From positions 1,610 to 65,609 of the forward strand of contig NZ_JAWLHI010000007.1 of the NCBI RefSeq assembly GCF_041690455.1: a stretch of 64,000 nt of DNA, given 5' to 3'. Both the position numbers and the translations under genes were made by a program. The notes under the pieces are model-generated. The model saw only the letters and a program-made list of their open reading frames with translations. It did no database searches and was not told the origin of the DNA. This stretch comes from Marinobacter sp. GTDB lineage: Bacteria; Pseudomonadota; Gammaproteobacteria; Pseudomonadales; Oleiphilaceae. Shown here piece after piece: positions 39,463 to 52,603 of the stretch; the first letter of the stretch is position 1; every line of letters begins with the position of its first letter.

Positions 39463-39522
39463 GGCTCGTATCCTCGGATTCGATGTGGGGAACCATGCCG
39501 CGGTTTCACCGGTGCGGTGAAT

Positions 39523-39612
39523 ACTCAATCCCTTCGCCGGTACGAGCCGGATCAGGTTCCGCGGGTATGGTCTCAGCCCTCCATTCTTCGTGGGAAGGGC
39601 ACCCCGTTGAGT
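39523..39612 (-). ncRNA. TPP riboswitch
   Basis: Minus strand reads ACTCAACGGGGTGC...GCTGAGA-CCATACCC..GAACCTGATCCGG..TACCGGCGAAGGGATTGAGT, with P1 pairing ACTCAA/TTGAGT, upstream of thiB. Confidence 0.93.
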
Positions 39613-39764
39613 GACGCACAGTATAACACGCCAGCCCCTATCGCCTGCCAGTCATCGAATTTACCTATCAGCGTCATTGTGTCGCATATAGCCATAAGAC
39701 CTATGCTTAGAACAAAAAGTATGGTTTAGTGTGTGACGTAACGACAGACACTCCCCACGGAGGA

Positions 39765-40637
39765 ATGACTATGCAAATGCCTGTAGTCACACATTTCTTT
39801 GATGAACCTACCAATACGTTCAGTTACGTAGTAAAAGATCCCGAAAGCAAGGCCTGCGCCATCGTGGATTCCGTGCTGGATTTCGACTACGCCGCCGGCC
39901 GGACCGATGTCCGTTCTGCCGACGAAATCATCCGCTTCATAAACGATGGCGGACTGAAGGTCGAGTGGATACTCGAAACCCACGTTCACGCTGACCATCT
40001 TTCTGCAGCGCCTTACCTGCAGGAACAGCTCGGTGGCAAGACCGGCATCGGCCAGAAGATCGTCGACGTGCAGGAAATTTTCGGCAAAGCCTTTAATGCC
40101 GGAACCGAGTTTGCCCGTGACGGCAGCCAGTTTGATCGGCTGTTCGAGGAAGGGGATACCTTCCAGATCGGCAACCTCGAAGGGCAGGTGTTGCATACTC
40201 CGGGCCATACGCCCGCGTGCCTGACCTACGTTATCGGTGACGCAGCCTTTGTCGGCGACACCCTGTTTGCGCCGGATTCCGGCACCGCCCGTTGTGACTT
40301 TCCCGGCGGTGACGCTCACACCCTTTATCGCTCTGTCCAGAAGGTTCTGGCCCTGTCCGGTGAGACGCGGATCTTCCTGTGCCACGACTACAAGGCACCG
40401 GGCCGGGACGAGTTCCAGCATGAGACAACCGTTGCCGAGCAACGGGCCAGCAATATCCACGTTCGCGAAGGTATGACCGAGGATGATTTCGTCCGGCTCC
40501 GGACCGAACGGGACGCCACGCTCAACATGCCCCGACTGATCCTGCCGTCGGTGCAGGTGAACATGCGGGCCGGTGAGATGCCCCCCGCTGAGGACAACGG
40601 ACAGGTATACCTGAAAGTACCTATCAACCGCTTCTGA
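39765..40637 (+). CDS. pdo: Persulfide dioxygenase, Blh-like MBL fold (start 39765 or 39771)
   Basis: FFDEPTNTFSYVV, LETHVHADH, TPGHTPAC, GDTLF..GTARCDF, LCHDY, LILPSVQVN. Confidence 0.85.
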   Translation: MTMQMPVVTHFFDEPTNTFSYVVKDPESKACAIVDSVLDFDYAAGRTDVRSADEIIRFINDGGLKVEWILETHVHADHLSAAPYLQEQLGGKTGIGQKIVDVQEIFGKAFNAGTEFARDGSQFDRLFEEGDTFQIGNLEGQVLHTPGHTPACLTYVIGDAAFVGDTLFAPDSGTARCDFPGGDAHTLYRSVQKVLALSGETRIFLCHDYKAPGRDEFQHETTVAEQRASNIHVREGMTEDDFVRLRTERDATLNMPRLILPSVQVNMRAGEMPPAEDNGQVYLKVPINRF

Positions 40638-40650
40638 CAGAGGGGACGCC

Positions 40651-41067
40651 ATGAAGATTCATTATCTTGAACCGGAGTTCGCGGTTGCCGATACCGTGGC
40701 TATCGAGGATCTCCTTGAAATCCGGGAAAAAGGTTTCCGGACGGTTATCTGTAACCGGCGTCCGGGCGAGGAAGGTTACGCGGGTGAGGCAGCCTACGCA
40801 GAAGCGGCCGCAAAAGCCGGCCTTGACTGGGTATGTGTCCCGGTAGCATCCGGCGAGTATTCCGAAGCAGATGTGGAAGAGTTCGGAAAAGCGCTGGAAA
40901 GTGTGCCTTCGCCAATCCTCGGGTTCTGCCGGACCGGCCGTCGCGCCGTTCACATGTGGGCCCAGGCTCGCGCCCGGGAACCACAGTGCAGTATCCCGAT
41001 GCTCCTCAAGGCGGCCCATGAGGCCGGTCATGATCCTCAGCCCATCCGGGAACTGCTGGAAAAGTAA
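40651..41067 (+). CDS. DUF442/TIGR01244-family sulfurtransferase
   Basis: GFRTVICNRRPGEE, GFCRTGRRA (CxxGxR loop). Confidence 0.88.
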   Translation: MKIHYLEPEFAVADTVAIEDLLEIREKGFRTVICNRRPGEEGYAGEAAYAEAAAKAGLDWVCVPVASGEYSEADVEEFGKALESVPSPILGFCRTGRRAVHMWAQARAREPQCSIPMLLKAAHEAGHDPQPIRELLEK

Positions 41068-41128
41068 CGTTTGAATATTGAGCTCGACGGACAGGGAGGT
41101 CCCTTGCTATTGCGGAGTTGAAGACCAG

Positions 41129-42391
41129 ATGAAATCAAATCAAGACCTCGACCAATCCTCCCTGAAATACCATGATGTGGTTATCATTGGGGCCGGGGCT
41201 GGCGGAATTGCGACCGCTGCAAGCCTGTTGAAACGCCAGAAGGACCTGGACATCGCAATCATTGATTCCTGTGAAATTCATTATTACCAGCCGGGCTGGA
41301 CCATGGTTGGTGGCGGTGTGTTTTCCGCCGAAAGCACACGACGCAAGACCGAATCCGTCATTCCCCGGGGTTGCCACTGGTATCGGGTGACAGCGGAGCA
41401 TGTGGACCCTGAGGCCCAAGTGGTTACACTGACTGATCGCCGGCGTATCGGCTATCAACGGCTGGTGGTGGCCCCCGGTCTGGTACTGGACTGGGGCGAG
41501 GTAGCAGGTCTTGAAGAAACTCTCGGCCAGAACGGCGTTACTTCAAACTATCGCTACGATCTCGCACCCTATACCTGGTCGTTGGTGGAACAGCTTGAAA
41601 AAGGCAAGGCCCTGTTTGTGCAGCCCCCGATGCCGATCAAATGTGCCGGTGCTCCCCAGAAGGCCATGTACCTGTCAGCTGATGAGTGGCGCCGCAAAGG
41701 CCGGCTGAATAGCATCGATGTTTCCTACCATTCCGCGGGCCAGGTGCTCTTCGGTGTCGAGGATTACGTGCCCGAGCTGCAGAAATATGTGGATCGCTAC
41801 GGGATCGACCTGCGTTTTGAAGAACGTCTCATTGCTGTTGATGGTAAGGATAAGATCGCTCATTTTGTAAAGCGCACTGGAGATCTGCAGGAAATCGTTG
41901 ATCGCCCGTTTGATATGCTTCATGTTGTTCCTGCCCAGCGCGCCCCTCACTTTATAGCTGAATCAGGGCTGGCCAACTCAGAGGGCTGGACCGATCTCGA
42001 TTCAGAAACCCTCCAGCATGTCCGATACCCATCAATATTCGGGCTGGGGGATGCCAGCGGAACACCTAATGCCAAAACAATGGCGGCGGTGCGAAAGCAG
42101 GCCCCGGTGGTGGCGGCAAATCTCGTTGCCTCACTGCTGGATCAAGAGCTTCCTGCCGCCTATCTCGGCTATGGCTCCTGTCCGCTGACGGTAGAGCGGG
42201 GCAGGATCGTCCTTGCCGAATTCGGCTATGGCGGCAAGCTCCAGCCGAGCTTCCCGAGCTGGATCAATGACGGCACCAAGGCAACCCGAATGGCCTGGTG
42301 GTTGAAGGCGAAGCAGCTGCCCTGGCTTTACTGGAACGGGATGCTCAAGGGTCGGGAATGGATGGCGGCACCAGCCGCACGAAAGGTCTGA
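41129..42391 (+). CDS. sqr: Sulfide:quinone oxidoreductase (type II-like)
   Basis: IIGAGAGG, YYQPGWT, KCAGAPQK, GLGDA, YGSCP, LAEFGY. Confidence 0.88.
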   Translation: MKSNQDLDQSSLKYHDVVIIGAGAGGIATAASLLKRQKDLDIAIIDSCEIHYYQPGWTMVGGGVFSAESTRRKTESVIPRGCHWYRVTAEHVDPEAQVVTLTDRRRIGYQRLVVAPGLVLDWGEVAGLEETLGQNGVTSNYRYDLAPYTWSLVEQLEKGKALFVQPPMPIKCAGAPQKAMYLSADEWRRKGRLNSIDVSYHSAGQVLFGVEDYVPELQKYVDRYGIDLRFEERLIAVDGKDKIAHFVKRTGDLQEIVDRPFDMLHVVPAQRAPHFIAESGLANSEGWTDLDSETLQHVRYPSIFGLGDASGTPNAKTMAAVRKQAPVVAANLVASLLDQELPAAYLGYGSCPLTVERGRIVLAEFGYGGKLQPSFPSWINDGTKATRMAWWLKAKQLPWLYWNGMLKGREWMAAPAARKV

Positions 42392-42409
42392 TATCAGGGA
42401 GTGAGAAAC

Positions 42410-44149
42410 ATGTCGGATCGGTTAACCCGGTTCCTGCCTATTCTGAACTGGCTTAAGGACTATCGGGGCGACACGTTTGTCAGCGACGCGCTGGCAGCAG
42501 TAATTGTCACCCTGATGCTGGTGCCCCAGGCGCTGGCCTATGCCTTGCTGGCAGGTCTTCCGCCCGAGGTTGGTTTGTATGCCAGTATGATCCCGCTGGT
42601 GGCGTACGCACTGTTCGGAACCAGTGCAACGCTTGCTGTCGGGCCTGTGGCCGTTGCCTCCCTGATGACCGCTTCTGCACTCGGTGGCATCGCCGAAGCG
42701 GGCACTCCCGAGTATGTCGGTGCCGCGCTGGTACTGGCCTCGCTCTCCGGCCTGATGCTTTTTGCCATGGGCCTCCTGCGGCTTGGTTTTCTGGCCAATT
42801 TCCTCAGTCATCCGGTGATATCCGGGTTTGTGACTGCTTCGGGCATCCTCATCGCCGGCAGTCAACTTGGCCATATTCTGGGTATCCAGGGCGGCGGCCA
42901 CAACCTGGTGGAAATGGTCCAGGGGCTATGGCAGCAGCTGGGCGGGATCAATCCGATGACTCTGGTAATCGGTGGGGGCGCCCTGGTCTTCCTCTATCTC
43001 TGTCGCAAGTTCCTCAAGCGAGGCCTGACCGGCATTGGATTGTCTGAGCGCCTGGCGGACCTGACCACCAAGGCCGCGCCGGTGACCGCGGTCATCGTCA
43101 CCACGGCGGCCGCCTGGTATTTCGATCTTGGCTCTGCAGGGGTAAACCTGGTGGGTGAAGTGCCCAGTGGCCTTCCGGATATCAGCCTGCCGTCCATGGA
43201 TCCGGATATCTGGGCAACCCTGGTGCCCGCCGCCATCCTGATCAGTCTCGTCGGTTTTGTGGAGTCTGTTTCGGTTGCGCAGACCCTTGCGGCCAAGCGG
43301 CGTCAGCGGATTGATCCTGATTCCGAGCTGATTGCCCTGGGCCTGGCCAACGTGGCCGCAGGCGTTAGCGGTGGTTCGCCGGTATCCGGCGGATTCTCAA
43401 GATCCGTGGTCAACTTCGAGGCCGGTGCCCAGACGCCGATTGCCGGTGCGCTGACCGCTGTCGGTATTGCCGTGGCAACGCTTACGCTGACCGGCCTACT
43501 CGCGTTCCTGCCCAAGGCGACCCTGGCAGCGACCATTATCATCGCTGTGAGCACGCTGATTGACCTGCCGGCGATCCGGCGGACTCTGGCGTATTCGAAG
43601 GCGGACGGAACAGCGATGTTGGCCACGATTATTCTGACCCTGGCGCACGGGGTCGAGGCCGGCATTATTGTGGGTGTTGCGCTGTCGATCGGGCTGTACC
43701 TGTATCGCACCAGCCGACCTCACAGCGCCGTGGTGGGACGGATACCGGGTACAGAACATTTCCGCAACGTTCAGCGCCACAAGGTCGAAATCGACGACAG
43801 TACCGTTGTGCTGCGAGTTGACGAGAGCCTGTATTTCGCTAACGCCCGCTATCTCGAGGAAACGGTTCTGGAGCTGGTGTCCGACAACCCGGAAATGAAG
43901 AATCTGGTGCTGGCCTGCCAGGCGGTCAATGAAATTGATGCTTCTGCCTTGGAAAGCCTGGAAGCGATCAACAGCCGTCTGGAAGATGCGGGTATTCGCT
44001 TGCATCTGTCCGAAGTTAAAGGGCCGGTTATGGATCGCCTGAAACGGACGCATTTCTGTGAGGAGCTGACGGGTCAGATTTTTCTCAGTACGTACGACGC
44101 ATGGAAGGCACTCGCAAAAAAGCCAACTATCCTTTTTAAAACTAACTGA
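42410..44149 (+). CDS. SulP/SLC26 anion transporter with STAS domain
   Basis: PQALAYA.LAGLPPE.GLY, GPVA, HPVISGF, GGFSRS..N, R.DESLYFAN. Confidence 0.93.
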   Translation: MSDRLTRFLPILNWLKDYRGDTFVSDALAAVIVTLMLVPQALAYALLAGLPPEVGLYASMIPLVAYALFGTSATLAVGPVAVASLMTASALGGIAEAGTPEYVGAALVLASLSGLMLFAMGLLRLGFLANFLSHPVISGFVTASGILIAGSQLGHILGIQGGGHNLVEMVQGLWQQLGGINPMTLVIGGGALVFLYLCRKFLKRGLTGIGLSERLADLTTKAAPVTAVIVTTAAAWYFDLGSAGVNLVGEVPSGLPDISLPSMDPDIWATLVPAAILISLVGFVESVSVAQTLAAKRRQRIDPDSELIALGLANVAAGVSGGSPVSGGFSRSVVNFEAGAQTPIAGALTAVGIAVATLTLTGLLAFLPKATLAATIIIAVSTLIDLPAIRRTLAYSKADGTAMLATIILTLAHGVEAGIIVGVALSIGLYLYRTSRPHSAVVGRIPGTEHFRNVQRHKVEIDDSTVVLRVDESLYFANARYLEETVLELVSDNPEMKNLVLACQAVNEIDASALESLEAINSRLEDAGIRLHLSEVKGPVMDRLKRTHFCEELTGQIFLSTYDAWKALAKKPTILFKTN

Positions 44150-44169
44150 CGTTCCTGCTGGAGGTTCCC

Positions 44170-45600
44170 ATGGAACTTGATCCTCTGTTGCTATCGCGAA
44201 TCCAGTTCGCGTTTGTGGTGTCATTTCACGCCATCTTTCCGGTGTTTACCATCGGTTTGGCCTCCTATATTGCGGTGCTGGAGGCCCTGGGCTTCAAGAC
44301 CGGCAATCCGGTGTGGCTGAAGCTCTCGGGCTTCTGGACCAAGGTCTTTGCCGTGGTGTTCGGCATGGGCGTGGTCTCGGGCATCGTGATGTCGTTCCAG
44401 TTCGGAACCAACTGGAGCAACTTCTCCCAGGCCACCGCCAACTTCCTCGGGCCGGTACTCAGCTATGAGGTGATCACCGCCTTCTTCCTGGAAGCCGCGT
44501 TCCTGGGCGTGCTGCTGTTCGGCCGCGACAAGGTTCCGCCCGGCGTGCACCTGTTCGCGGCCATCATGGTGGCCACCGGCACCTTCATCTCGTCGTTCTG
44601 GATTCTCTCGGCCAACAGCTGGATGCAGACTCCGGCCGGCTTCGAGCTGATTGACGGCGTGTTCCATGTCACCTCCTGGAGCGAGGCGATCTTCAACCCT
44701 TCCTTCCCATACCGCTTCATGCATATGGGGCTGGCCTCGTTCCTGACCGGCAGTTTCGTGGTGGCCGGTGTCAGTGCCTGGTACCTCCTCCGTGGCCGGG
44801 AAGTGGAAGCCAACCGCAAGGCGCTGTCCATGTGCCTGTGGCTGATCCTGTTCATCGCCCCGGCCCAGCTGATTGTGGGTGACTTCCACGGCCTGAGCAC
44901 CCTGGAGCATCAGCCCACCAAGGTGGCCGCGATGGAAGGCAACTGGGAGACCTCCTCCAACGTACCGCTGCTGCTGTTCGCCATTCCCGACCAGGACGCC
45001 CAGACCAACCATTTCGAGATCGGCATTCCCAGCCTGGCCAGTATGATCCTGACCCACGAGTGGGACGGGGTGGTACCCGGCCTGAAGGATGTGCCACGGG
45101 CGGAACAACCGCCGGTGGCCATCGTGTTCTGGTCGTTCCGGATCATGGTCGGTATCGGCACCCTGATGATCCTGGTGGGTCTGACCGGCCTGGCGCTGCG
45201 TCGCGGGGGTCGTTACTTCCAGTCCACCTGGTTCCTGCAGGTGCTGCGGGTGATGAGCATTGCCCCGTTCATTGCGGTGCTGACCGGCTGGTTTGTGACC
45301 GAAGTGGGTCGGGCCCCCTGGCTGGTGTACGGCATCATGGACCAGGCGGCGGCGGTCACCCCTTCACTGACCGGCGGCATGGCGTTGTTCACCCTGATCG
45401 GCTACATCGTGGTCTATGCGGCGGTGTTCTCCGCGGGTGTCTACTACCTGATGCGGGTGCTGTACGTGGGCCTGGAAGACCAGGATGACGAGGAAGAGCA
45501 CGAGGCGGACCGTCCGGCACGACCACTTTCCGCGGCTCATGTACCGTTCGAATACGGCGAAGACAAACACCGCAACCCGGCCAAGCAGGGAGGTCACTGA
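44170..45600 (+). CDS. cydA: Cytochrome bd-type quinol oxidase subunit I (short Q-loop, CioA-like)
   Basis: SRIQF..SFH, FQFGTNW, ANSWMQTP, RFMH, QPTKVAAMEG, SFRIM, EVGRAPW; heme-ligand positions are present. Confidence 0.95.
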   Translation: MELDPLLLSRIQFAFVVSFHAIFPVFTIGLASYIAVLEALGFKTGNPVWLKLSGFWTKVFAVVFGMGVVSGIVMSFQFGTNWSNFSQATANFLGPVLSYEVITAFFLEAAFLGVLLFGRDKVPPGVHLFAAIMVATGTFISSFWILSANSWMQTPAGFELIDGVFHVTSWSEAIFNPSFPYRFMHMGLASFLTGSFVVAGVSAWYLLRGREVEANRKALSMCLWLILFIAPAQLIVGDFHGLSTLEHQPTKVAAMEGNWETSSNVPLLLFAIPDQDAQTNHFEIGIPSLASMILTHEWDGVVPGLKDVPRAEQPPVAIVFWSFRIMVGIGTLMILVGLTGLALRRGGRYFQSTWFLQVLRVMSIAPFIAVLTGWFVTEVGRAPWLVYGIMDQAAAVTPSLTGGMALFTLIGYIVVYAAVFSAGVYYLMRVLYVGLEDQDDEEEHEADRPARPLSAAHVPFEYGEDKHRNPAKQGGH

Positions 45601-45602
45601 TT

Positions 45603-46604
45603 ATGGAACTCTTCGATCTGCCCCTGATCTGGGCATTCATTATCGGCTTCGGCATCATCATGTATGTGCTGATGGACGGCTTCGACCTGGGTGTCGGCAT
45701 CCTGTTCCCGTTCGCCCCGAGCGAGGGAGACCGGGACACCATGATGAACTCGGTGGCCCCGGTGTGGGACGGCAACGAGACCTGGCTGGTGCTGGGTGGT
45801 GCCGGCCTGCTAGCCGCCTTCCCGATGGTGTACACCATCTTCCTGCCGGCGCTGTACATCGGTGTGTTCCTGCTGCTGGCCGGTCTGATTTTCCGGGGCG
45901 TGGCTTTCGAGTTCCGGTTCAAGGCCCGCACTTCCCGCTACCTGTGGAACTGGGCTTTTGCCGGCGGCTCCACCATCGCCTCCTTCGCCCAGGGCGCGGT
46001 GGTCGGTGCCTACATCCAGGGCTTCAATACCGTGGACGGCGTGTACGTTGGCGGCGCCCTGGACTGGCTGACGCCGTTCACCGTCCTCACTGGCCTGGGC
46101 ATGCTGGCCGGCTACTCCCTGCTGGGGTCCACCTGGCTGATCATGAAGACCGAAGGCCGGCTGCAGGAATGGGCCTACCGGATCACCCTGCCACTGCTGG
46201 CCGCGGTGCTGATCATCTTCGGCATCATCAGCGTCTGGACCCCGTTCGTGGACGATCTGGTGCGCGAGCGCTGGTTCTCCAACCTGACCGTGATCTGGAT
46301 CCTGCCGGTGCTGACCCTGCTGTGTGCCTTCCAGATCTTCCGGTCGGTGCGCAACCGCTTTGAAGGCATGCCGTTTGTGGCCACCATGGGGTTGTTCATC
46401 ACCACCTACCTGGGCCTGGTGGTCAGCCGCTGGCCGTACGTGGTACCGCCGGAGTACACCCTGTGGGATGCGGCCTCGGCCTATGGTTCGCAGATGTTCC
46501 TGCTGCTGGGGACGCTGCTGGTGGTGCCCATCGTGATCACCTACACCGCCTGGACCTACTGGGTCTTCCGCGGCAAGGTGCGTGCCGGTGAGGGATACCA
46601 CTGA
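45603..46604 (+). CDS. cydB: Cytochrome bd-type oxidase subunit II
   Basis: MDGFDLG.GIL, PVWDGNETWL, FRGVAFEFR, YT.WTYWVFRGK. Confidence 0.95.
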   Translation: MELFDLPLIWAFIIGFGIIMYVLMDGFDLGVGILFPFAPSEGDRDTMMNSVAPVWDGNETWLVLGGAGLLAAFPMVYTIFLPALYIGVFLLLAGLIFRGVAFEFRFKARTSRYLWNWAFAGGSTIASFAQGAVVGAYIQGFNTVDGVYVGGALDWLTPFTVLTGLGMLAGYSLLGSTWLIMKTEGRLQEWAYRITLPLLAAVLIIFGIISVWTPFVDDLVRERWFSNLTVIWILPVLTLLCAFQIFRSVRNRFEGMPFVATMGLFITTYLGLVVSRWPYVVPPEYTLWDAASAYGSQMFLLLGTLLVVPIVITYTAWTYWVFRGKVRAGEGYH

Positions 46605-46605
46605 C

Positions 46606-46638
46606 AAAAAAGCCGCCTCCTGACCGGAGGCGGCTTTT
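46606..46638. terminator. Bidirectional intrinsic terminator
   Basis: AAAAGCCGCCTCC-tgacc-GGAGGCGGCTTTT between convergent genes. Confidence 0.8.
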
Positions 46639-46670
46639 CAATTTTTAAGTCCTGCCAATTGAGTGGCTGG

Positions 46671-47051
46671 TCAGTCGAAATCAGGCAGTTCCGGTTTCAC
46701 CACCGGCTTGCCAGCTTCCTGCCACGCCTCGATTCCTCCGGAAATGGACTGTACGTGGATATAGCCCATTTCTTTCATGGCTTTGGCCGAGAGGGCAGAG
46801 CGGCCACTGTTCTTGCAGTAGATCACCATATTCAGCCCCCGATCTTCCAGGGCTGGATCATTGGTCAGCTTGAATTCCAGAATACCCCGGGGAATGTTGA
46901 CGGCGCCCGGAATATGGCCGGCGTGGTACTCGTCAGCTTCCCGAACATCAATCAGCATGTCTGCCTGCTTGATGGCGTCTTCGGATTTCTCCAAAGGTAC
47001 TTCCCGTATCTCGGCCTTCGCGGCCTGAACCATGTCATGAACATTCTTCAT
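46671..47051 (-). CDS. Single-domain rhodanese
   Basis: IDVRE..EY..GHIPGA, YCKNSGRS. Confidence 0.9.
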   Translation of the reverse strand: MKNVHDMVQAAKAEIREVPLEKSEDAIKQADMLIDVREADEYHAGHIPGAVNIPRGILEFKLTNDPALEDRGLNMVIYCKNSGRSALSAKAMKEMGYIHVQSISGGIEAWQEAGKPVVKPELPDFD

Positions 47052-47143: not shown

Positions 47144-47797
47144 TTACAGAGACTTGGTGCAGAAATAGAAGTCCTTGCACTCGTAGTCACCGGACTCGAC
47201 GCGTGAGTTGGCGCCGTCAGCGGTCTTGGCCGGCGGAACGATGACCTTGTCGCCTTTCTTCCAGCCTTCCGGAGTAGCCACACCGTGCTCGTCACTGGTC
47301 TGCAGGGCTTCCAGCAGGCGCAGGAACTCGGGGATGGAACGGCCGTTGCTCATCGGGTAGTACACCATGGCCCGCAGGATGCCGTTCGGGTCGATGATGA
47401 AGGTGGCGCGAACCGCGGAGGTGTCGCCGGCACCCGGATGGATCATACCGTAGGCCTTGGCCACGTCCATCTTCAGGTCTTCGATGATCGGGAACGGAAT
47501 TTCAACGCCCCAGTTCTGTTTGATATTGCGCATCCAGGCAATGTGGGAGTGGATGCTGTCGATGGACAGACCCAGCAGCTCACAGTTCAGCTTGGCGAAT
47601 TCCGGCGCCGCTTCAGCGAAGGCCATGAATTCGGTGGTGCAAACGGGAGTGAAGTCAGCCGGGTGGGAAAACAGAACCAGCCACTTGCCCTTGTAATCAC
47701 TCAGGGATTTCTCGCCATCGGTGGTCAGCGCTTTGAAATCCGGAGCCGGTTCGTTGATGCGCGGCAGGCCGGCTACAGATGCTGCTTGAGTATCCAT
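47144..47797 (-). CDS. Peroxiredoxin (Prx6-class, PVCTTE), copy 1
   Basis: FSHPADFTPVCTTE, GRSIPE, ATP.GW, C-terminal CKDFYFC. Confidence 0.93.
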   Translation of the reverse strand: MDTQAASVAGLPRINEPAPDFKALTTDGEKSLSDYKGKWLVLFSHPADFTPVCTTEFMAFAEAAPEFAKLNCELLGLSIDSIHSHIAWMRNIKQNWGVEIPFPIIEDLKMDVAKAYGMIHPGAGDTSAVRATFIIDPNGILRAMVYYPMSNGRSIPEFLRLLEALQTSDEHGVATPEGWKKGDKVIVPPAKTADGANSRVESGDYECKDFYFCTKSL

Positions 47798-48027: not shown

Positions 48028-48699
48028 GTGGCGAAAATTGAGCCTTTCGAAGCGCACCATGAACGTTATGAATCCTGGTTCGATAGGCACCGCGAAGCCT
48101 ATGTATCGGAGCTCCTGGCTGTCAGGGCTTTTGTTCCCCTGGAAGGAAAGGGTCTGGAGGTGGGGATCGGCAGCGGGAGGTTCTCGGCGCCTCTGGGGGT
48201 ACAGTACGGGATAGATCCATCCCCGGCGATGCTTAACTACGCCCGTTCCTGTGGTATGAACGTGGCCGTCGCCATAGCAGAGCAGCTCCCGTTCAAGGCC
48301 TGTGTTTTTGATTACGCCCTGGTGGTGACCACCATCTGTTTTGTCGATTCAGCCAGCGACATGCTTGCCGAGATCCATCGGGTCCTGACGCCGGAGGGCA
48401 AATTGATCATCGGTCTGATCGACCGGGAAAGTGAACTCGGAGCGTTCTACCAAAAGCATAAGGCTGAAAGTGTTTTTTATCGCGATGCCGAGTTTTTCTC
48501 TGCAGCAGAAGTCGAGCGTCTGTTGGAGGATAACGGATTTACGGTGAACGCGCGGGCCCAGACACTTTTCAGGCCGCTTCCGGAGACCACAGAGATCGAA
48601 CCGACACTTCCGGGAAGAGGTAAGGGCGCTTTCGTGGTAATCACAGGTAAAAAAGCCGGACCTCTCGGTCCGGCAAAGGGCTGTGAATCAGTCGTTTGA
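48028..48699 (+). CDS. Class I SAM-dependent methyltransferase
   Basis: GLEVGIGSGRF, GIDPS, AEQLPF..FD, EIHRVL.PEG; GTG start. Confidence 0.85.
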   Translation: MAKIEPFEAHHERYESWFDRHREAYVSELLAVRAFVPLEGKGLEVGIGSGRFSAPLGVQYGIDPSPAMLNYARSCGMNVAVAIAEQLPFKACVFDYALVVTTICFVDSASDMLAEIHRVLTPEGKLIIGLIDRESELGAFYQKHKAESVFYRDAEFFSAAEVERLLEDNGFTVNARAQTLFRPLPETTEIEPTLPGRGKGAFVVITGKKAGPLGPAKGCESVV

Positions 48700-48716: not shown

Positions 48717-49370
48717 TTACAGGGACTTGGTGCAGAAGTAGAAGTCCTTGCACTCGTAGTCACCAGACTCGACTCGGGCGTTGGCGCTGTCAGCGGTCTT
48801 GGCCGGCGGAACGATGACCTTGTCACCTTTCTTCCAACCTTCCGGAGTGGCCACACCGTGTTCTTCACTGGTCTGCAGGGCTTCCAGCAGGCGCAGGAAC
48901 TCGGGGATGGAGCGGCCGTTGCTCATCGGGTAGTAGACCATGGCGCGCAGGATGCCGTTCGGATCGATGATGAAGGTGGCGCGAACCGCGGAGGTGTCGC
49001 CGGCACCCGGATGGATCATGCCGTAGGCCTTGGCCACGTCCATCTTCAGGTCTTCGATGATCGGGAACGGAATTTCAACGCCCCAGTTCTGTTTGATATT
49101 GCGCATCCAGGCAATGTGGGAGTGGATGCTGTCGATGGACAGACCCAGCAGCTCACAGTTCAGCTTGGCGAATTCCGGCGCCGCTTCAGCGAAGGCCATG
49201 AATTCGGTGGTGCAAACCGGAGTGAAGTCGGCCGGGTGGGAGAACAGAACCAGCCACTTGCCCTTGTAATCGCTCAGGGACTTCTCGCCGTCGGTGGTCA
49301 GGGCTTTGAAATCCGGAGCCGGTTCGTTGATGCGCGGCAGGCCCGCGACAGGTGCTGCTTGAGTTTCCAT
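48717..49370 (-). CDS. Peroxiredoxin (Prx6-class), copy 2
   Basis: Same motifs as copy 1; 5 substitutions in 217 aa. Confidence 0.93.
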   Translation of the reverse strand: METQAAPVAGLPRINEPAPDFKALTTDGEKSLSDYKGKWLVLFSHPADFTPVCTTEFMAFAEAAPEFAKLNCELLGLSIDSIHSHIAWMRNIKQNWGVEIPFPIIEDLKMDVAKAYGMIHPGAGDTSAVRATFIIDPNGILRAMVYYPMSNGRSIPEFLRLLEALQTSEEHGVATPEGWKKGDKVIVPPAKTADSANARVESGDYECKDFYFCTKSL

Positions 49371-49643: not shown

Positions 49644-50687
49644 ATGATATTCCGGCAACTGTTTGATGATGTATCTTCGACCTTTACTTATCTCCTGGCG
49701 GATGAGGACAAAAAAGAAGCAATCCTGATCGACGCAGTGTTCTCCCAGGCCAAGAGGGACCTGGCATTGATCGATGAACTCGGTCTGACACTGGTGCTCG
49801 CCGCTGACACCCACGCCCACGCGGACCACATCACCGCAGCCTGGCTGCTCAAACAGAAAACCGGTTGCAAGATTGCCTCCGCCAAAGCCATCGGGGCTGA
49901 CCATGTTGATGTGCCGCTTGAGGATGGTCAGGAATTCGGAGTTGCAGGGATCACACTTCGGGCGATATCCACGCCGGGTCATACAGACGGCTGCATGAGC
50001 TATGTCATGGCGGACCAATCGATGGTGTTTACCGGAGATGCCTTGTTGATCCGGGGTTGCGGCCGCAGTGATTTCCAACAGGGAAGTGCCCATAAACTTT
50101 TCGAGTCCATCACCAACAAACTGTTCTCCCTGCCGGATTCCTGCGTGGTTTACCCGGCCCACGACTACCATGGCCGGAGCGTCAGTTCTATCGGGGAAGA
50201 AAAAGCGTTCAATGCCCGTGTGGGCGGAGGGGCGAACGAAACGGATTTTGTGGAATACATGAATGCCATGAAGCTTCCTCATCCCAAAAAAATCGACGAG
50301 GCTTTGCCAGCCAACCTCCGTAGTGGTTGTCCTGAAGATGGAAAGCTTCCGGAAGAGCCCGATTGGGCTGATATCCGGCTGACTTACGCCGGCGTTCCGG
50401 AAATCGGGGAGGAGTGGCTGGAACACCATCTGGATGAGGTCACGGTTCTTGATGTCAGGCTTGCGGAGGAGGTCAAGGACTGCCCGGTTACTGAAACACT
50501 GGTGGATCTTCACATCCCTCTGGACCAGCTCAGGTCGCGAGTGGGCGATGTCCCCAGGGAAAAACCGGTGGTTGCGCTCTGTCGCTCCGGCCGGAGGTCG
50601 GCCATGGCCGTCAATATCCTCAAGGACAACGGTTTTGACAAGGTGGCAAGTCTGAGCCGAGGGCTCATGGAAATAACAAGAAATTAA
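49644..50687 (+). CDS. ETHE1-like persulfide dioxygenase fused to a C-terminal rhodanese
   Basis: FRQLFD..SSTFTYLL, DTHAHADH, PGHTDGC, GDALLIRGCGR.DFQ, YPAHDY; rhodanese loop LCRSGRRS. Confidence 0.88.
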   Translation: MIFRQLFDDVSSTFTYLLADEDKKEAILIDAVFSQAKRDLALIDELGLTLVLAADTHAHADHITAAWLLKQKTGCKIASAKAIGADHVDVPLEDGQEFGVAGITLRAISTPGHTDGCMSYVMADQSMVFTGDALLIRGCGRSDFQQGSAHKLFESITNKLFSLPDSCVVYPAHDYHGRSVSSIGEEKAFNARVGGGANETDFVEYMNAMKLPHPKKIDEALPANLRSGCPEDGKLPEEPDWADIRLTYAGVPEIGEEWLEHHLDEVTVLDVRLAEEVKDCPVTETLVDLHIPLDQLRSRVGDVPREKPVVALCRSGRRSAMAVNILKDNGFDKVASLSRGLMEITRN

Positions 50688-50744
50688 GGAAATAGCGTCT
50701 TTATTTAAACTGATTTCTTGATTCAGGAAGGACTGAGCTCCTGC

Positions 50745-51479
50745 ATGGATGATACTTTCTGGACGGCTCTGACAACGAGTATCCTGGCGGCACTGGTCAC
50801 ATCGATCGGTATTTTCACGATCCGCCGTTTTGCAGACTGGGGGCATCGGAACACCACCTACTTTATATGCTTTGCTGCAGGTGTTCTGATTTCCGCCTCC
50901 TTTTTGCACATTATTCCGAAATCCTTTTCAATGAATCCGGATGCACCGGTCTGGCTCCTGGTGGGTTTCATGGGACTCCACCTTTTCAACCGCTTCCTGA
51001 CGGCCTTTGTCTGCGAGAGGGACCCGGCCAAGAAGGACTATGTGATTGGCATCATCCCGATGCTGGGGATCGGGTTCCACTCGTTTATTGACGGGTTTAT
51101 CTATTCAATCTCGTTCACCGTGAGCATCTTTACCGGCTATCTCGCAACGGTGGGTATGGTTCTGCACGAGTTTCCGGAAGGAATCATTACCTATCTTCTG
51201 CTTGTGCGGGGCGGGATTACTCCGAAACTGGCCATGCCCCTCGCGTTTCTTGCAGCGGCGGCTACAACCCCTCTGGGAATGCTGGTTTCCTATCCCCTTG
51301 TTAACGACATTGATCCGGAGTCGCTGGGGGCCTTGCTGTCGTTGTCCGCAGGCGCCCTCGTCTACGTCGGTGCAACCCATCTGCTGCCTAGGGCCGAGCA
51401 GGAACAAAAGAAGTTCAGCCTGGTTGCCCTGGCAGGAGGGGTGCTGGTTGCTGCGGTGATTGTCGCGTCCAAAGCGTGA
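50745..51479 (+). CDS. ZIP-family metal transporter
   Basis: FAAGVLI..SF.H, FHSFIDG, LHEFPEG, GALVYV. Confidence 0.88.
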   Translation: MDDTFWTALTTSILAALVTSIGIFTIRRFADWGHRNTTYFICFAAGVLISASFLHIIPKSFSMNPDAPVWLLVGFMGLHLFNRFLTAFVCERDPAKKDYVIGIIPMLGIGFHSFIDGFIYSISFTVSIFTGYLATVGMVLHEFPEGIITYLLLVRGGITPKLAMPLAFLAAAATTPLGMLVSYPLVNDIDPESLGALLSLSAGALVYVGATHLLPRAEQEQKKFSLVALAGGVLVAAVIVASKA

Positions 51480-51616
51480 ATTTAAACAGCATTTTTGGCG
51501 ATTTTTTGTCCTGTTTTTCTGGTTCACTCCACCAGATGGTCTATCTTTGTAGTGTGCTGGTCAGGATCAACGTTTCGTCGACCGACCGCAGATGTGGCAG
51601 TTGGAGGACAATAAAA

Positions 51617-52603
51617 ATGGAAGTTATTCGTGTGCTGAGAAAAGGATCTGTGGTTCTGGGAGCTTCTGCCCTTGCTGCGTGTGGCGGCGGAGGTGGGGGC
51701 AGTGATGGTGATACTGCGGTTGCGCTGACTTGTGAATCGGCTGCTCTTCCAGTGTACGAGCTTATGCTGGATTCGAATAAATATTCAGGTCAGGAAGTTA
51801 CGATAATTAATGCTGATGATGTCGCGAACATGCTGGGCATCTATGGTGATGTTGAGGTTGGAACAGCTCTTATCAATAACGTCCGAACAGCATTAACGAA
51901 TCAGAGTGGTGATAAGCCTGTTTGCGTAAACGAAGAGGAAGGTGGCACGGCAACCCTGAGTGTTTCCGGTTCCGGAAGCAAGGTCGAAGAGCGTTGGGTT
52001 TTTAACAGTTGCGTTGTGAGTACTTCAGACTTTGGGCAGGTCAGTCTCTCCGGAACCTACCGAAACGGCGAAGAGATTACAGACAAGACCAGCAAAGTCC
52101 GAAGAGGTGAAGAATTTCAAATCTACGAAGATTTACAAGGTAAAATTGTCGACCCCCAAACCGCAACGCCTTTCACGATAAACGGTCAGTCATCCGTGGT
52201 TTTTGAGGTTGAATTGGCCTCGGGCGATGGCTGTGTGAAGGAGAACGTTTCGGGCCTGGAATTTCAGTCGTTTGACGGGGATTACGTTGCGCTTACGGGG
52301 TCCGAAACCTTTCTGAAAAAATCCGGATCGATGACGGAGATCAGAATTAAAGGAACTCTCGTTGGCTCCTCCGTTGGCGGTTACCTCGAAGTGTCAGCAC
52401 CGGAGCCCGTTGTCTTTGCAGATTCTCAAAAATGTCCTCAGGAAGGCATCATCAGAGTCTTAAGTGACGGAGAAGCTCGAGTCCTTTATGGCGACAGCGC
52501 CGGCGGGACGGCAACGGGTGTGGCGGTATGGATTAACAATCAATTAGAACAGAGTTATGACGACTGCCAGAAAATTGGCGTGGCGCCTCTCTCTGCTGAT
52601 TAA
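51617..52603 (+). CDS. Hypothetical lipoprotein
   Basis: GGAGG RBS; lipobox LAAC followed by GGGGGGS; six further Cys; beta-rich sequence. Confidence 0.75.
   Translation: MEVIRVLRKGSVVLGASALAACGGGGGGSDGDTAVALTCESAALPVYELMLDSNKYSGQEVTIINADDVANMLGIYGDVEVGTALINNVRTALTNQSGDKPVCVNEEEGGTATLSVSGSGSKVEERWVFNSCVVSTSDFGQVSLSGTYRNGEEITDKTSKVRRGEEFQIYEDLQGKIVDPQTATPFTINGQSSVVFEVELASGDGCVKENVSGLEFQSFDGDYVALTGSETFLKKSGSMTEIRIKGTLVGSSVGGYLEVSAPEPVVFADSQKCPQEGIIRVLSDGEARVLYGDSAGGTATGVAVWINNQLEQSYDDCQKIGVAPLSAD

What the first reader, a model, noticed from the sequence alone, without database searches (positions are those of the whole stretch)
39765..46604. Sulfide-oxidation operon extended by its own bd-type oxidase
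Seen: pdo-DUF442-sqr-sulP-cydA-cydB are co-oriented with short gaps (20 nt between sulP and cydA), and the first clear terminator follows cydB. Established: SQR feeds sulfide electrons to quinone, PDO and sulfurtransferases clear sulfane sulfur, and bd oxidases tolerate sulfide that blocks heme-copper oxidases. Inference: a self-contained H2S-to-O2 respiratory/detox cassette. cydAB looks more GC3-rich by eye, suggesting later recruitment.
Basis: partly seen in the sequence, partly recalled or inferred. Interest (0 to 1): 0.62.

Follow-up and report, generated by a model that had tools for sequence, protein, structure and literature searches.

The report
Sulfide operon carrying spare bd oxidase
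A Marinobacter sulfide-detoxification operon has picked up a promoterless second copy of the cell's own sulfide-tolerant cytochrome bd oxidase, so a link usually made by gene regulation is here built into one apparent transcription unit.

Summary
Window 39771-46604 (+) encodes a persulfide dioxygenase, a DUF442 sulfurtransferase, a type II SQR, a SulP/STAS permease, CydA and CydB. Gaps are 2-61 nt. The only strong terminator (-24.3 kcal/mol) starts 4 nt after cydB.

New findings:
- **Origin.** cydAB is a 2,443-nt promoterless duplicate (44160-46602, ribosome-binding site to stop codon) of Marinobacter's own cydABDC genes. It sits between sulP and the operon terminator.
- **Spread.** The same junction occurs in at least five Marinobacter lineages.
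- **Loss.** It was lost by deletion in two close relatives; one keeps 36 cydB codons.
- **Two copies.** One 903-kb contig carries both copies 127 kb apart, 99.0% identical, while its flanks are only 83% identical to the window. This indicates gene conversion.
- **GC3.** The high GC3 (0.83/0.89) is real, but the canonical cydAB has it too, so it does not mark foreign DNA.
- **Second case.** Vreelandella/Halomonas independently placed a cydAB paralogue lacking cydDC beside a different SQR.

Co-transcription, sulfide induction and function remain untested. "Self-contained" overstates the case: cydDC and any regulator lie elsewhere. Sulfide induction of cydAB and an SQR-bd link through the quinone pool are already published. 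I found no report of the operon fusion. I rate it a new variant of a known kind, of moderate interest.

The parts
39648..39770 (+). Conserved 5' leader and regulatory region of the operon. The promoter and operator were not resolved. GGAGG ribosome-binding site at about 39760.
   Evidence: About 125 nt upstream of pdo stay conserved in loci with three different upstream neighbours: thiB, SelO and thioredoxin (alignment A3). No sigma-70 consensus hit. No repeat found.
39771..40637 (+). pdo: persulfide (sulfur) dioxygenase, P. putida/P. aeruginosa type, 288 aa.
   Evidence: PF00753. It matches the dioxygenase half of NF040641 Blh at 406 bits. PDB 9g8t 6.7e-121 and 4ysk 2.8e-114. The HVHADH metal motif is present.
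40651..41067 (+). DUF442 (rhodanese-like) sulfurtransferase, 138 aa, free-standing.
   Evidence: PF04273. TIGR01244 scores 95.8 bits against a cut-off of 85.85. The CRTGRR active-site motif aligns to PDB 2f46.
41129..42391 (+). sqr: type II sulfide:quinone oxidoreductase, 420 aa (the ORF is extendable to a TTG at 41078).
   Evidence: Human SQOR 6oi5 scores 8.6e-84, against 1e-10 for the A. ferrooxidans and Aquifex SQRs. The GAGAGG FAD motif and both catalytic Cys (PIKCAGAPQK, GSCPLT) are aligned.
42410..44149 (+). sulP: SLC26/SulP anion transporter with a C-terminal STAS domain, 579 aa. Presumed carrier of sulfite or thiosulfate.
   Evidence: PF00916 2e-100 plus PF01740. TIGR00815 scores 441.6 bits against a cut-off of 380. 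Orthologues are 579 aa.
44160..46602 (+). Duplicated unit: a promoterless copy of the housekeeping cydAB, from 10 nt before the cydA ATG to the cydB stop codon.
   Evidence: Nucleotide homology to the canonical cydABDC loci of other Marinobacter begins and ends exactly here. The same boundaries separate the two copies on one contig.
44170..45600 (+). cydA: cytochrome bd-type quinol oxidase subunit I, 476 aa, short Q-loop.
   Evidence: PF01654 1e-161. Best PDB match is E. coli bd-II AppC at 2.2e-85, with about 60 residues of the Q-loop missing. The H19, E99/E107, H186 and FRIM (R391/M393) equivalents are aligned.
45603..46604 (+). cydB: cytochrome bd-type quinol oxidase subunit II, 333 aa.
   Evidence: PF02322 7.5e-96. 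TIGR00203 scores 161.8 bits against a cut-off of 117.3.
46608..46648 (.). Bidirectional intrinsic terminator shared by the operon and the convergent rhodanese gene.
   Evidence: 13-bp stem, dG -24.3 kcal/mol, z -6.0. It is conserved in the other S loci and in the DUT-1 deletion allele, but absent after the canonical cydB (alignment A2).
46671..47051 (-). Single-domain rhodanese, convergent neighbour. It is kept next to the array in every related locus.
   Evidence: PF00581 6e-21. Synteny.
47144..47797 (-). 1-Cys peroxiredoxin, a neighbour of the sulfur island. A second copy lies at 48717-49370.
   Evidence: PF00578, PF10417 and NF009668. The duplicate was seen.
49644..50687 (+). Second persulfide-dioxygenase-like MBL protein fused to a rhodanese domain. 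Part of the same sulfur neighbourhood but not of the operon.
   Evidence: PF00753 plus PF00581. Weak Blh and GloB hits.

Best explanation
This is the heterotroph-type sulfide-oxidation operon of a Marinobacter: pdo, a DUF442 sulfurtransferase, type II sqr and sulP. An ancestor of one subclade inserted a promoterless duplicate of its own cydAB, a short-Q-loop cytochrome bd-type quinol oxidase, between sulP and the operon terminator.

Shown here:
- The gene identities and the exact 2,443-nt duplicated unit.
- The shared junction in several species, and a second canonical cydABDC copy in the same genomes.
- Near-identity of the two copies within a genome.
- Secondary loss by deletion in two relatives.

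Inferred:
- The copy brings no upstream DNA of its own and lies 20 nt behind sulP, so it is transcribed by read-through from the operon promoter.
- When the operon is on, SQR passes sulfide electrons to quinone and the co-made bd oxidase re-oxidises the quinol with O2. Sulfide blocks haem-copper oxidases but not bd oxidases.
- PDO, DUF442 and the neighbouring rhodanese turn the sulfane sulfur into sulfite and thiosulfate, which SulP probably carries across the membrane.
- Assembly of the extra oxidase depends on CydDC encoded at the canonical locus.
- The two copies encode the same enzyme, so the gain is regulatory: one oxidase under two inputs.
For: - Identities.
- Layout and terminator.
- Window homology to canonical Marinobacter cydAB loci is confined to 44160-46602. 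All of those loci continue into cydDC, which the window copy lacks.
- The same array and an identical sulP-cydA junction occur in M. pelagius, HL-58, C1S70 and three metagenome assemblies, with three different upstream contexts.
- Both copies sit on one 902,877-bp contig and are 99.0% identical over exactly that unit. That genome's flanks are 83% identical to the window.
- The tree groups copies by genome, not by locus: pelagius S and C are sisters at 98% bootstrap.
- dN/dS is 0.02-0.07, and no residue is specific to the operon copies.
- Loss was by deletion. DUT-1 keeps the last 36 cydB codons and the terminator. M. szutsaonensis lost 44119-46670 and has a frameshifted sqr.
- cydAB is present only where an intact sqr is adjacent: 7 loci with it, 3 without.
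- No sigma-70-like site lies in the 1 kb before cydA. An FNR/ANR-like box upstream of the canonical copy is not carried over.
- Independent parallel: a distinct Vreelandella/Halomonas cydAB clade without cydDC sits behind a different SQR, next to prx-pdo-duf442-sulP.
Against: - No transcript data. No RNA run holds this genome, and the metagenome contigs are uninformative about co-transcription.
- The promoter, operator and regulator were not identified.
- A cryptic promoter inside the sulP 3' end cannot be excluded.
- Frequent conversion from the selected canonical copy could keep the operon copy intact without selection on it, so the low dN/dS is weaker evidence of function than it looks.
- The copy has been deleted at least twice, once in a strain whose sqr is intact (DUT-1). 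It is therefore dispensable in some lineages.
- Whether the window's own genome has the canonical cydABDC copy is unknown.
- The sulfide insensitivity of this short-Q-loop enzyme is extrapolated from E. coli bd.
Confidence: 0.65

Rival explanations
1. The adjacency is a neutral by-product of a duplication. The extra cydAB is expressed from its own cryptic promoter in the sulP 3' end, or constitutively, and serves as extra oxidase dosage with no specific tie to sulfide.
For: - The copy encodes the same protein as the canonical one, with no locus-specific residues.
- It has been lost twice, once with sqr intact.
- No transcription data are available.
Against: - Only the ribosome-binding site and ORFs were copied, with no native upstream DNA.
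- The gap is 20 nt, and no promoter-like site lies in the preceding 1 kb.
- The junction is retained across lineages whose flanking genes differ by up to dS 1.2-2.8.
- The copy is never found without an adjacent intact sqr.
- An independent sqr-cydAB pairing exists in Vreelandella.
Confidence: 0.17
2. The operon copy is functionally inert or decaying. Its ORFs look intact only because gene conversion from the canonical cydAB keeps overwriting them.
For: - The copies are 99.0% identical within one genome, and the tree follows genomes rather than loci.
- Deletions occurred in two relatives, and a deletion allele is seen in metagenomes.
Against: - The unit is complete, with an intact ribosome-binding site and both reading frames, in all seven carrier loci. 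Two of these loci end inside cydA, so only the junction and cydA start are seen there.
- In M. pelagius the copies differ by 4.4%, yet dN/dS between them is 0.024.
- Conversion does not protect against whole-unit deletion, yet the unit persists in most lineages of the subclade.
Confidence: 0.1
3. cydAB was acquired horizontally from a GC-richer foreign genome, as the GC3 excess might suggest.
For: cydAB GC3 is 0.83/0.89, against 0.60-0.69 for the four upstream genes.
Against: - The nearest relatives are Marinobacter's own canonical cydAB: 93% nt and 97-99% aa.
- Those canonical genes have the same GC3 (0.876/0.904) while their cydDC partners do not.
- The copy nests inside the Marinobacter clade with 100% bootstrap.
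Confidence: 0.03

Closest known systems
SQR-PDO sulfide-oxidation operons of heterotrophic bacteria (Cupriavidus pinatubonensis pdo-sqr; A. baumannii FisR-controlled pdo-sqr-tauE; Blh/BigR operon of Xylella and Agrobacterium)
   Same: - It has a type II SQR, a persulfide dioxygenase and a DUF442/rhodanese sulfurtransferase.
- It also has an anion transporter for the oxidised sulfur product.
- PDO and DUF442 together match the two halves of the Blh model NF040641.
- Free-standing DUF442 proteins in sqr-pdo operons are described in PMC9163753.
   Different: - A terminal oxidase sits inside the operon.
- No FisR, BigR/SqrR or CstR gene is adjacent.
- The transporter is SulP/STAS rather than TauE.
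- DUF442 is split from PDO and lies downstream of it.
Sulfide-induced cytochrome bd (cydAB) of E. coli, M. tuberculosis and A. baumannii
   Same: - The logic is the same: a sulfide-tolerant quinol oxidase is made when sulfide is present.
- It is predicted to take SQR-derived electrons through the quinone pool (PMC7315123; PMC5702731).
   Different: - In those organisms the link is regulatory and acts on the single, separately located cydAB(DC/X) locus.
- Here a second, promoterless copy is physically fused to the sulfide operon, while the canonical cydABDC stays elsewhere.
Canonical gammaproteobacterial cydABDC locus (short-Q-loop, CIO-like bd oxidase)
   Same: - The protein is essentially identical: 97-99% aa, with no copy-specific residues.
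- The ribosome-binding site is the same.
   Different: - cydDC is lacking.
- The native upstream region is lacking, including an FNR/ANR-like box seen in M. pelagius.
- Membership of the cyanide-insensitive (CIO) subgroup was not tested.
Vreelandella/Halomonas sqr-orf113-cydA-cydB-ahpD cluster (L032, L055, L074)
   Same: A cydAB paralogue without cydDC is placed directly behind an SQR gene and beside prx-pdo-duf442-sulP.
   Different: - It is of independent origin. Its CydA forms its own clade inside the Halomonadaceae.
- The SQR is only 34% identical and of another type.
- A 113-aa ORF and a gap of about 190 nt separate sqr from cydA.
- The paralogue has diverged rather than being homogenised.

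Membership tests
Cytochrome bd-type quinol oxidase (CydAB) | Full-length subunit I and subunit II domains | tested here: met
   PF01654 covers positions 1-414 of 418 (E 1e-161). PF02322 covers 1-302 of 302 (E 7.5e-96). TIGR00203 is above its cut-off.
Cytochrome bd-type quinol oxidase (CydAB) | Haem-ligand and key residues of subunit I (E. coli numbering H19, E99, E107, H186, R391/M393) | tested here: met
   The alignment to E. coli AppC (7ose) shows H in 'sfHaif', E in 'syEvitaFFLEaaf', H in 'rfmHmg' and the 'FRIM' motif, all aligned to the same residues. This was read from the printed alignment, not from a structure.
Cytochrome bd-type quinol oxidase (CydAB) | CydDC assembly transporter available | tested here: not met
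   It is not present in cis: the terminator follows cydB by 4 nt. It is present in trans in relatives that carry both copies (L001 and L091). It is unknown for the window's own genome. This is a requirement for function, not a criterion of family membership.
Cytochrome bd-type quinol oxidase (CydAB) | Sulfide-insensitive O2 reduction | not testable with these tools
   Extrapolated from E. coli bd (Forte 2016 and Korshunov 2016, as cited).
Type II sulfide:quinone oxidoreductase (SQOR-like) | Closest to the eukaryotic/heterotroph SQOR group rather than type I | tested here: met
   Human SQOR scores 8.6e-84 over residues 13-412. The A. ferrooxidans and Aquifex SQRs score about 1e-10.
Type II sulfide:quinone oxidoreductase (SQOR-like) | FAD-binding GxGxxG and the two catalytic cysteines | tested here: met
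   IIGAGAGG is present. The Cys in PIKCAGAPQK aligns with PVKCAGAPQK, and the Cys in GSCPLT aligns with TSCPLV of human SQOR.
Persulfide dioxygenase (ETHE1/PDO) | MBL fold with the HxHxDH metal site and close similarity to characterised PDOs | tested here: met
   9g8t 6.7e-121 and P. putida PDO 4ysk 2.8e-114. HVHADH is aligned. NF040641 dioxygenase half scores 406 bits.
DUF442 / TIGR01244 sulfurtransferase | Model score above cut-off and an active-site Cys loop | tested here: met
   TIGR01244 scores 95.8 bits against 85.85. CRTGRR aligns to CRTGTR of 2f46.
SulP/SLC26 anion transporter | Sulfate_transp core plus a C-terminal STAS domain | tested here: met
   PF00916 covers 1-380 of 380, plus PF01740. 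TIGR00815 scores 441.6 bits against 380.45. The substrate is not testable here.
Single operon (one transcription unit pdo to cydB) | Co-orientation, short gaps, no internal terminator, one terminator at the end | tested here: met
   Gaps are 13, 61, 18, 20 and 2 nt. The only strong hairpin is at 46608-46638. The internal gaps are unstructured.
Single operon (one transcription unit pdo to cydB) | A transcript spanning sulP-cydA that responds to sulfide | not testable with these tools
   No RNA run holds this or the HL-58-like sequence. The metatranscriptome contigs do not resolve the junction.
Cyanide-insensitive oxidase (CIO) subgroup of bd oxidases | Short Q-loop, about 335-aa subunit II, and clustering with Pseudomonas CioAB | tested here: inconclusive
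   The short Q-loop (about 60 residues fewer than AppC) and the 333-aa CydB were seen. No comparison with CioAB sequences was made.

The most novel reading that the evidence does not exclude
A housekeeping respiratory oxidase has been duplicated as a bare ribosome-binding-site-to-stop cassette into a sulfide-oxidation operon. The copy is kept sequence-identical to its parent by ongoing gene conversion. The cell therefore runs one enzyme under two regulatory programmes, low O2 and sulfide, which makes SQR-driven sulfide respiration independent of sulfide-poisoned haem-copper oxidases. The same solution arose independently in the Halomonadaceae, which suggests a general selective pressure to co-express SQR with a bd oxidase in sulfidic-oxic interfaces.
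Probability: 0.5. Interest if true: 0.6.

Novelty: new variant of a known kind. Interest (0 to 1): 0.5.

Why it matters
The idea that bd oxidases let bacteria keep respiring, and keep SQR turning over, in the presence of sulfide rests mainly on regulation and inhibition studies in a few model organisms. Here evolution has written that coupling into gene order, at least twice. This is independent comparative support for the idea.

It also offers a clean genetic system. The two cydAB copies encode the same protein and differ only in context, so deleting one or the other separates the oxidase's sulfide role from its housekeeping role. Natural deletion alleles (DUT-1, M. szutsaonensis) already exist for comparison.

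The locus is also a compact example of concerted evolution between a regulatory paralogue and its parent gene. It warns that a codon-usage or GC3 anomaly can mark an intragenomic duplicate of a strongly biased gene rather than foreign DNA.

Tried and rejected
- **Exact-protein look-ups.** The window's own SulP (with a wrong GTG start) and CydB found nothing. The source genome is not in the collection, so its second cydAB copy could not be checked.
- **RNA evidence.** No run holds more than 24% of the words of the region. One metatranscriptome and three metagenomes were laid at 85% likeness. They gave a mixture of related species and both cydAB copies, which cannot show co-transcription.
  - The HL-58-like metagenome locus has no RNA run.
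- **Promoter and operator.** There is no sigma-70 consensus hit upstream of pdo. No direct or inverted repeat lies in 39617-39775. By eye there is no sigma-54 -24/-12 motif. No FNR/ANR box lies near the operon.
- **Regulator.** No HTH, sigma-54-activator or CsoR-type gene lies within about 10 kb in the window or in related loci.
- **Junction search in metagenome contigs.** A pattern search gave only one further locus, so the arrangement is rare in that collection.
- **Foreign origin of cydAB.** Rejected.
- **Assembly artefact.** Rejected. Both copies lie on one 903-kb contig, and the array is seen in several independent assemblies.
- **Literature.** Five full-text searches found the regulatory SQR-bd link but no description of an sqr-cydAB operon. 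This is absence within that library only.

Full report
**1. What is in the window**

The stretch 39771-46604 on the + strand holds six co-oriented genes. Pfam, NCBIfam and PDB searches identify them as follows.

| Gene | Coordinates | Main evidence |
|---|---|---|
| pdo (persulfide dioxygenase) | 39771-40637 | PF00753; dioxygenase half of the Blh model NF040641, 406 bits; PDB 9g8t 6.7e-121 and 4ysk 2.8e-114; HVHADH present |
| DUF442 sulfurtransferase, free-standing | 40651-41067 | TIGR01244 above cut-off; CRTGRR loop |
| sqr (sulfide:quinone oxidoreductase) | 41129-42391 | Human SQOR 8.6e-84 against about 1e-10 for type I SQRs; FAD motif and both catalytic cysteines aligned, so type II |
| sulP (SulP/SLC26 permease with STAS) | 42410-44149 | TIGR00815 above cut-off |
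| cydA | 44170-45600 | PF01654 1e-161; short Q-loop; haem-ligand residues aligned to E. coli AppC |
| cydB | 45603-46604 | PF02322 7.5e-96 |

- Gaps between the genes are 13, 61, 18, 20 and 2 nt.
- The only strong terminator starts 4 nt after cydB: 46608-46648, a 13-bp stem, -24.3 kcal/mol, z -6.0.
- The internal gaps fold no better than shuffled sequence.
- Upstream lies the divergent thiBPQ operon with its TPP riboswitch at 39512-39616 on the - strand.
- Downstream, convergent, lie a rhodanese gene (46671-47051) and a 1-Cys peroxiredoxin gene.

This includes the GC3 impression: cydA is 0.834 and cydB 0.889, against 0.60-0.69 for the four upstream genes. These are the two highest values of 30 long ORFs in the window.

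**2. Where the cydAB genes came from**

The window is from a Marinobacter. Its CydA is 97% identical in protein sequence to that of M. pelagius.

I fetched 80 genome loci encoding relatives of this CydA. None had sulP or sqr directly upstream in the same orientation. Nearly all of the close gammaproteobacterial loci (47 of them) continue from cydB straight into cydD-cydC.

Nucleotide homology between the window and these canonical Marinobacter loci runs only from 44160 to 46602. That is from 10 nt before the cydA ATG to the cydB stop codon.

Looking from the other side, I examined the closest SulP orthologues and their contigs.

- The array pdo-DUF442-sqr-sulP-cydA(-cydB)|rhodanese occurs in:
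  - M. pelagius 114J, where the contig ends inside cydA;
  - Marinobacter sp. HL-58, which has a different upstream neighbour;
  - two metagenome assemblies.
- In sp. C1S70 and one further metagenome contig, sqr-sulP-cydAB|rhodanese occurs without pdo and DUF442.
- One more junction hit came from a pattern scan of metagenome contigs.
- The sulP-cydA junction sequence is the same in all of them. It differs from the canonical upstream region up to the shared GGAGGTTCCCATG (alignment A1).
- The terminator after cydB belongs to the host site, not to the canonical locus (alignment A2).

The simplest reading is a single ancestral insertion of a promoterless cydAB unit between sulP and the operon terminator.

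**3. Two copies per genome, evolving in concert**

M. pelagius 114J carries both the operon copy (L081) and a canonical cydABDC (L001) on different contigs.

A 902,877-bp JGI contig carries both copies 127 kb apart (L093 and L091). This rules out an assembly artefact. On that contig the two copies are 99.0% identical (24 mismatches) over exactly the same 2,443-nt unit. That genome's operon flanks are only 83% identical to the window, while its cydAB is 93% identical.

In M. pelagius the two copies are 95.6% identical, whereas the operon copies of the window and of M. pelagius are 93.3% identical. A neighbour-joining tree groups copies by genome rather than by locus. The pelagius copies are sisters at 98% bootstrap. 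The whole subclade has 100% support inside Marinobacter.

No amino-acid position distinguishes operon copies from canonical copies. dN/dS is 0.02-0.07. This pattern is best explained by recurrent gene conversion between the copies.

It also explains the GC3 anomaly. The canonical cydAB of M. pelagius has GC3 0.876/0.904, while its cydDC has 0.73/0.71. The bias belongs to cydAB itself and is not a sign of foreign origin.

**4. Losses**

- **Marinobacter sp. DUT-1.** SulP is 97% identical, but cydAB is missing. The locus retains the last 36 codons of cydB and the terminator, so it lost the unit by deletion.
- **M. szutsaonensis.** It lacks window 44119-46670, has a truncated sulP 3' end and carries a 275-nt frameshifting deletion in sqr. 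Contigs with the same 44118-to-46671 joint occur in three environmental runs.
- **An uncultured Marinobacter.** It has pdo-DUF442-sulP with neither sqr nor cydAB.

Across the loci examined, the operon cydAB is present only where an intact sqr is adjacent. C1S70 shows that pdo and DUF442 need not be adjacent.

**5. An independent parallel**

In Vreelandella/Halomonas (L032, L055, L074), a cydAB without cydDC lies behind a different SQR (34% identity) and a 113-aa ORF. It is followed by an AhpD-like gene and is convergent with prx-pdo-DUF442-sulP-(disulfide reductase). These CydA proteins form their own clade nested among canonical Halomonadaceae copies. This is therefore a separate duplication, and in this case the copy has diverged.

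Idiomarina and a Pseudomonas MAG have cydABDC a few kb from sqr/pdo or pdo/sulP genes.

**6. How it most likely works**

Shown: the anatomy and the history described above.

Inferred:
- The unit carries no native upstream DNA. The FNR/ANR-like box seen about 160 nt upstream of the canonical M. pelagius cydA is absent from it.
- It sits 20 nt behind sulP, with no promoter-like site in the preceding 1 kb.
- It is therefore probably expressed by read-through from the operon's promoter. That promoter lies in a leader of about 125 nt that travels with the operon in three different genomic contexts.
- When the operon is on, SQR reduces quinone and the co-expressed bd oxidase re-oxidises it with O2 despite sulfide.
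- PDO, DUF442 and rhodanese process the sulfane sulfur. A role for free DUF442 in stimulating PDO is described in PMC9163753.
- SulP probably moves sulfite or thiosulfate across the membrane.
- CydDC must come from the canonical locus.

Published work already shows that sulfide induces cydAB in A. baumannii, E. coli and M. tuberculosis. It also predicts an SQR-CydAB link through the quinone pool (PMC7315123; PMC5702731).

**7. Caveats**

- No transcript evidence could be obtained.
- The promoter, operator and regulator are unidentified.
- Gene conversion weakens dN/dS as evidence of selection on the operon copy.
- The unit is dispensable in some lineages.
- Whether the window's own genome has a canonical copy is unknown.

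**8. Comparison with what is known, and verdict**

The components are ordinary members of their families; the membership table gives the tests. The coupling of SQR with a sulfide-tolerant bd oxidase is an established idea.

What I did not find in five literature searches is the physical fusion into one operon, the origin of the oxidase as a promoterless duplicate of the housekeeping genes, or its maintenance by concerted evolution.

I rate it a new variant of a known kind.

Noticed in passing
window 47144-47797 (-), 48028-48699 (+), 48717-49370 (-): The 1-Cys peroxiredoxin gene is duplicated (96% aa identity between copies). The two copies flank a class-I SAM methyltransferase gene. The same prx-MTase-prx arrangement is in L092 and L093, whereas HL-58 (L087) has a single prx and no methyltransferase.
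   Followed up: partly
window 49644-50687 (+): A second persulfide-dioxygenase-like MBL protein is fused to a C-terminal rhodanese domain, 3 kb downstream of the operon. The neighbourhood is a broader sulfur island: rhodanese, two peroxiredoxins and the PDO-rhodanese fusion.
   Followed up: partly
window 39512-39616 (-): A TPP riboswitch (70.6 bits) lies ahead of the divergent thiBPQ thiamine ABC transporter. Its promoter must share the roughly 150-nt intergenic region with the pdo promoter.
   Followed up: partly
window 51476-52603 (+): A 375-aa ORF with markedly low GC (0.49, GC3 0.47, against a window mean GC3 of 0.70) and no Pfam or NCBIfam hit. It sits next to a ZIP transporter gene (50718-51479). 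It may be a recent acquisition.
   Followed up: no
L001 8829-8842: An FNR/ANR-like box, TTGTTTTAAATCAA, lies about 160 nt upstream of the canonical cydABDC of M. pelagius. This suggests O2-limitation control of the housekeeping copy. The sulfide-operon copy does not carry it.
   Followed up: partly
L083 11747-11855 (Marinobacter sp. DUT-1): The cydB remnant (last 36 codons) differs from the window's CydB at 8 residues. That is far more than intact copies differ from each other. It may preserve an older, unhomogenised state of the inserted copy, or it may simply be decaying.
   Followed up: partly
L085 6718-7986 (Marinobacter sp. C1S70): The locus is a mosaic. SulP, CydA and CydB are 95-98% identical to the window, but the SQR is only 75% identical, and pdo/DUF442 are absent upstream. 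This suggests recombination within the operon.
   Followed up: no
window 44118/46671 joint in runs X20, X1, X4: Environmental contigs carry the same cydAB-less deletion allele as M. szutsaonensis. Both alleles therefore circulate in nature.
   Followed up: no
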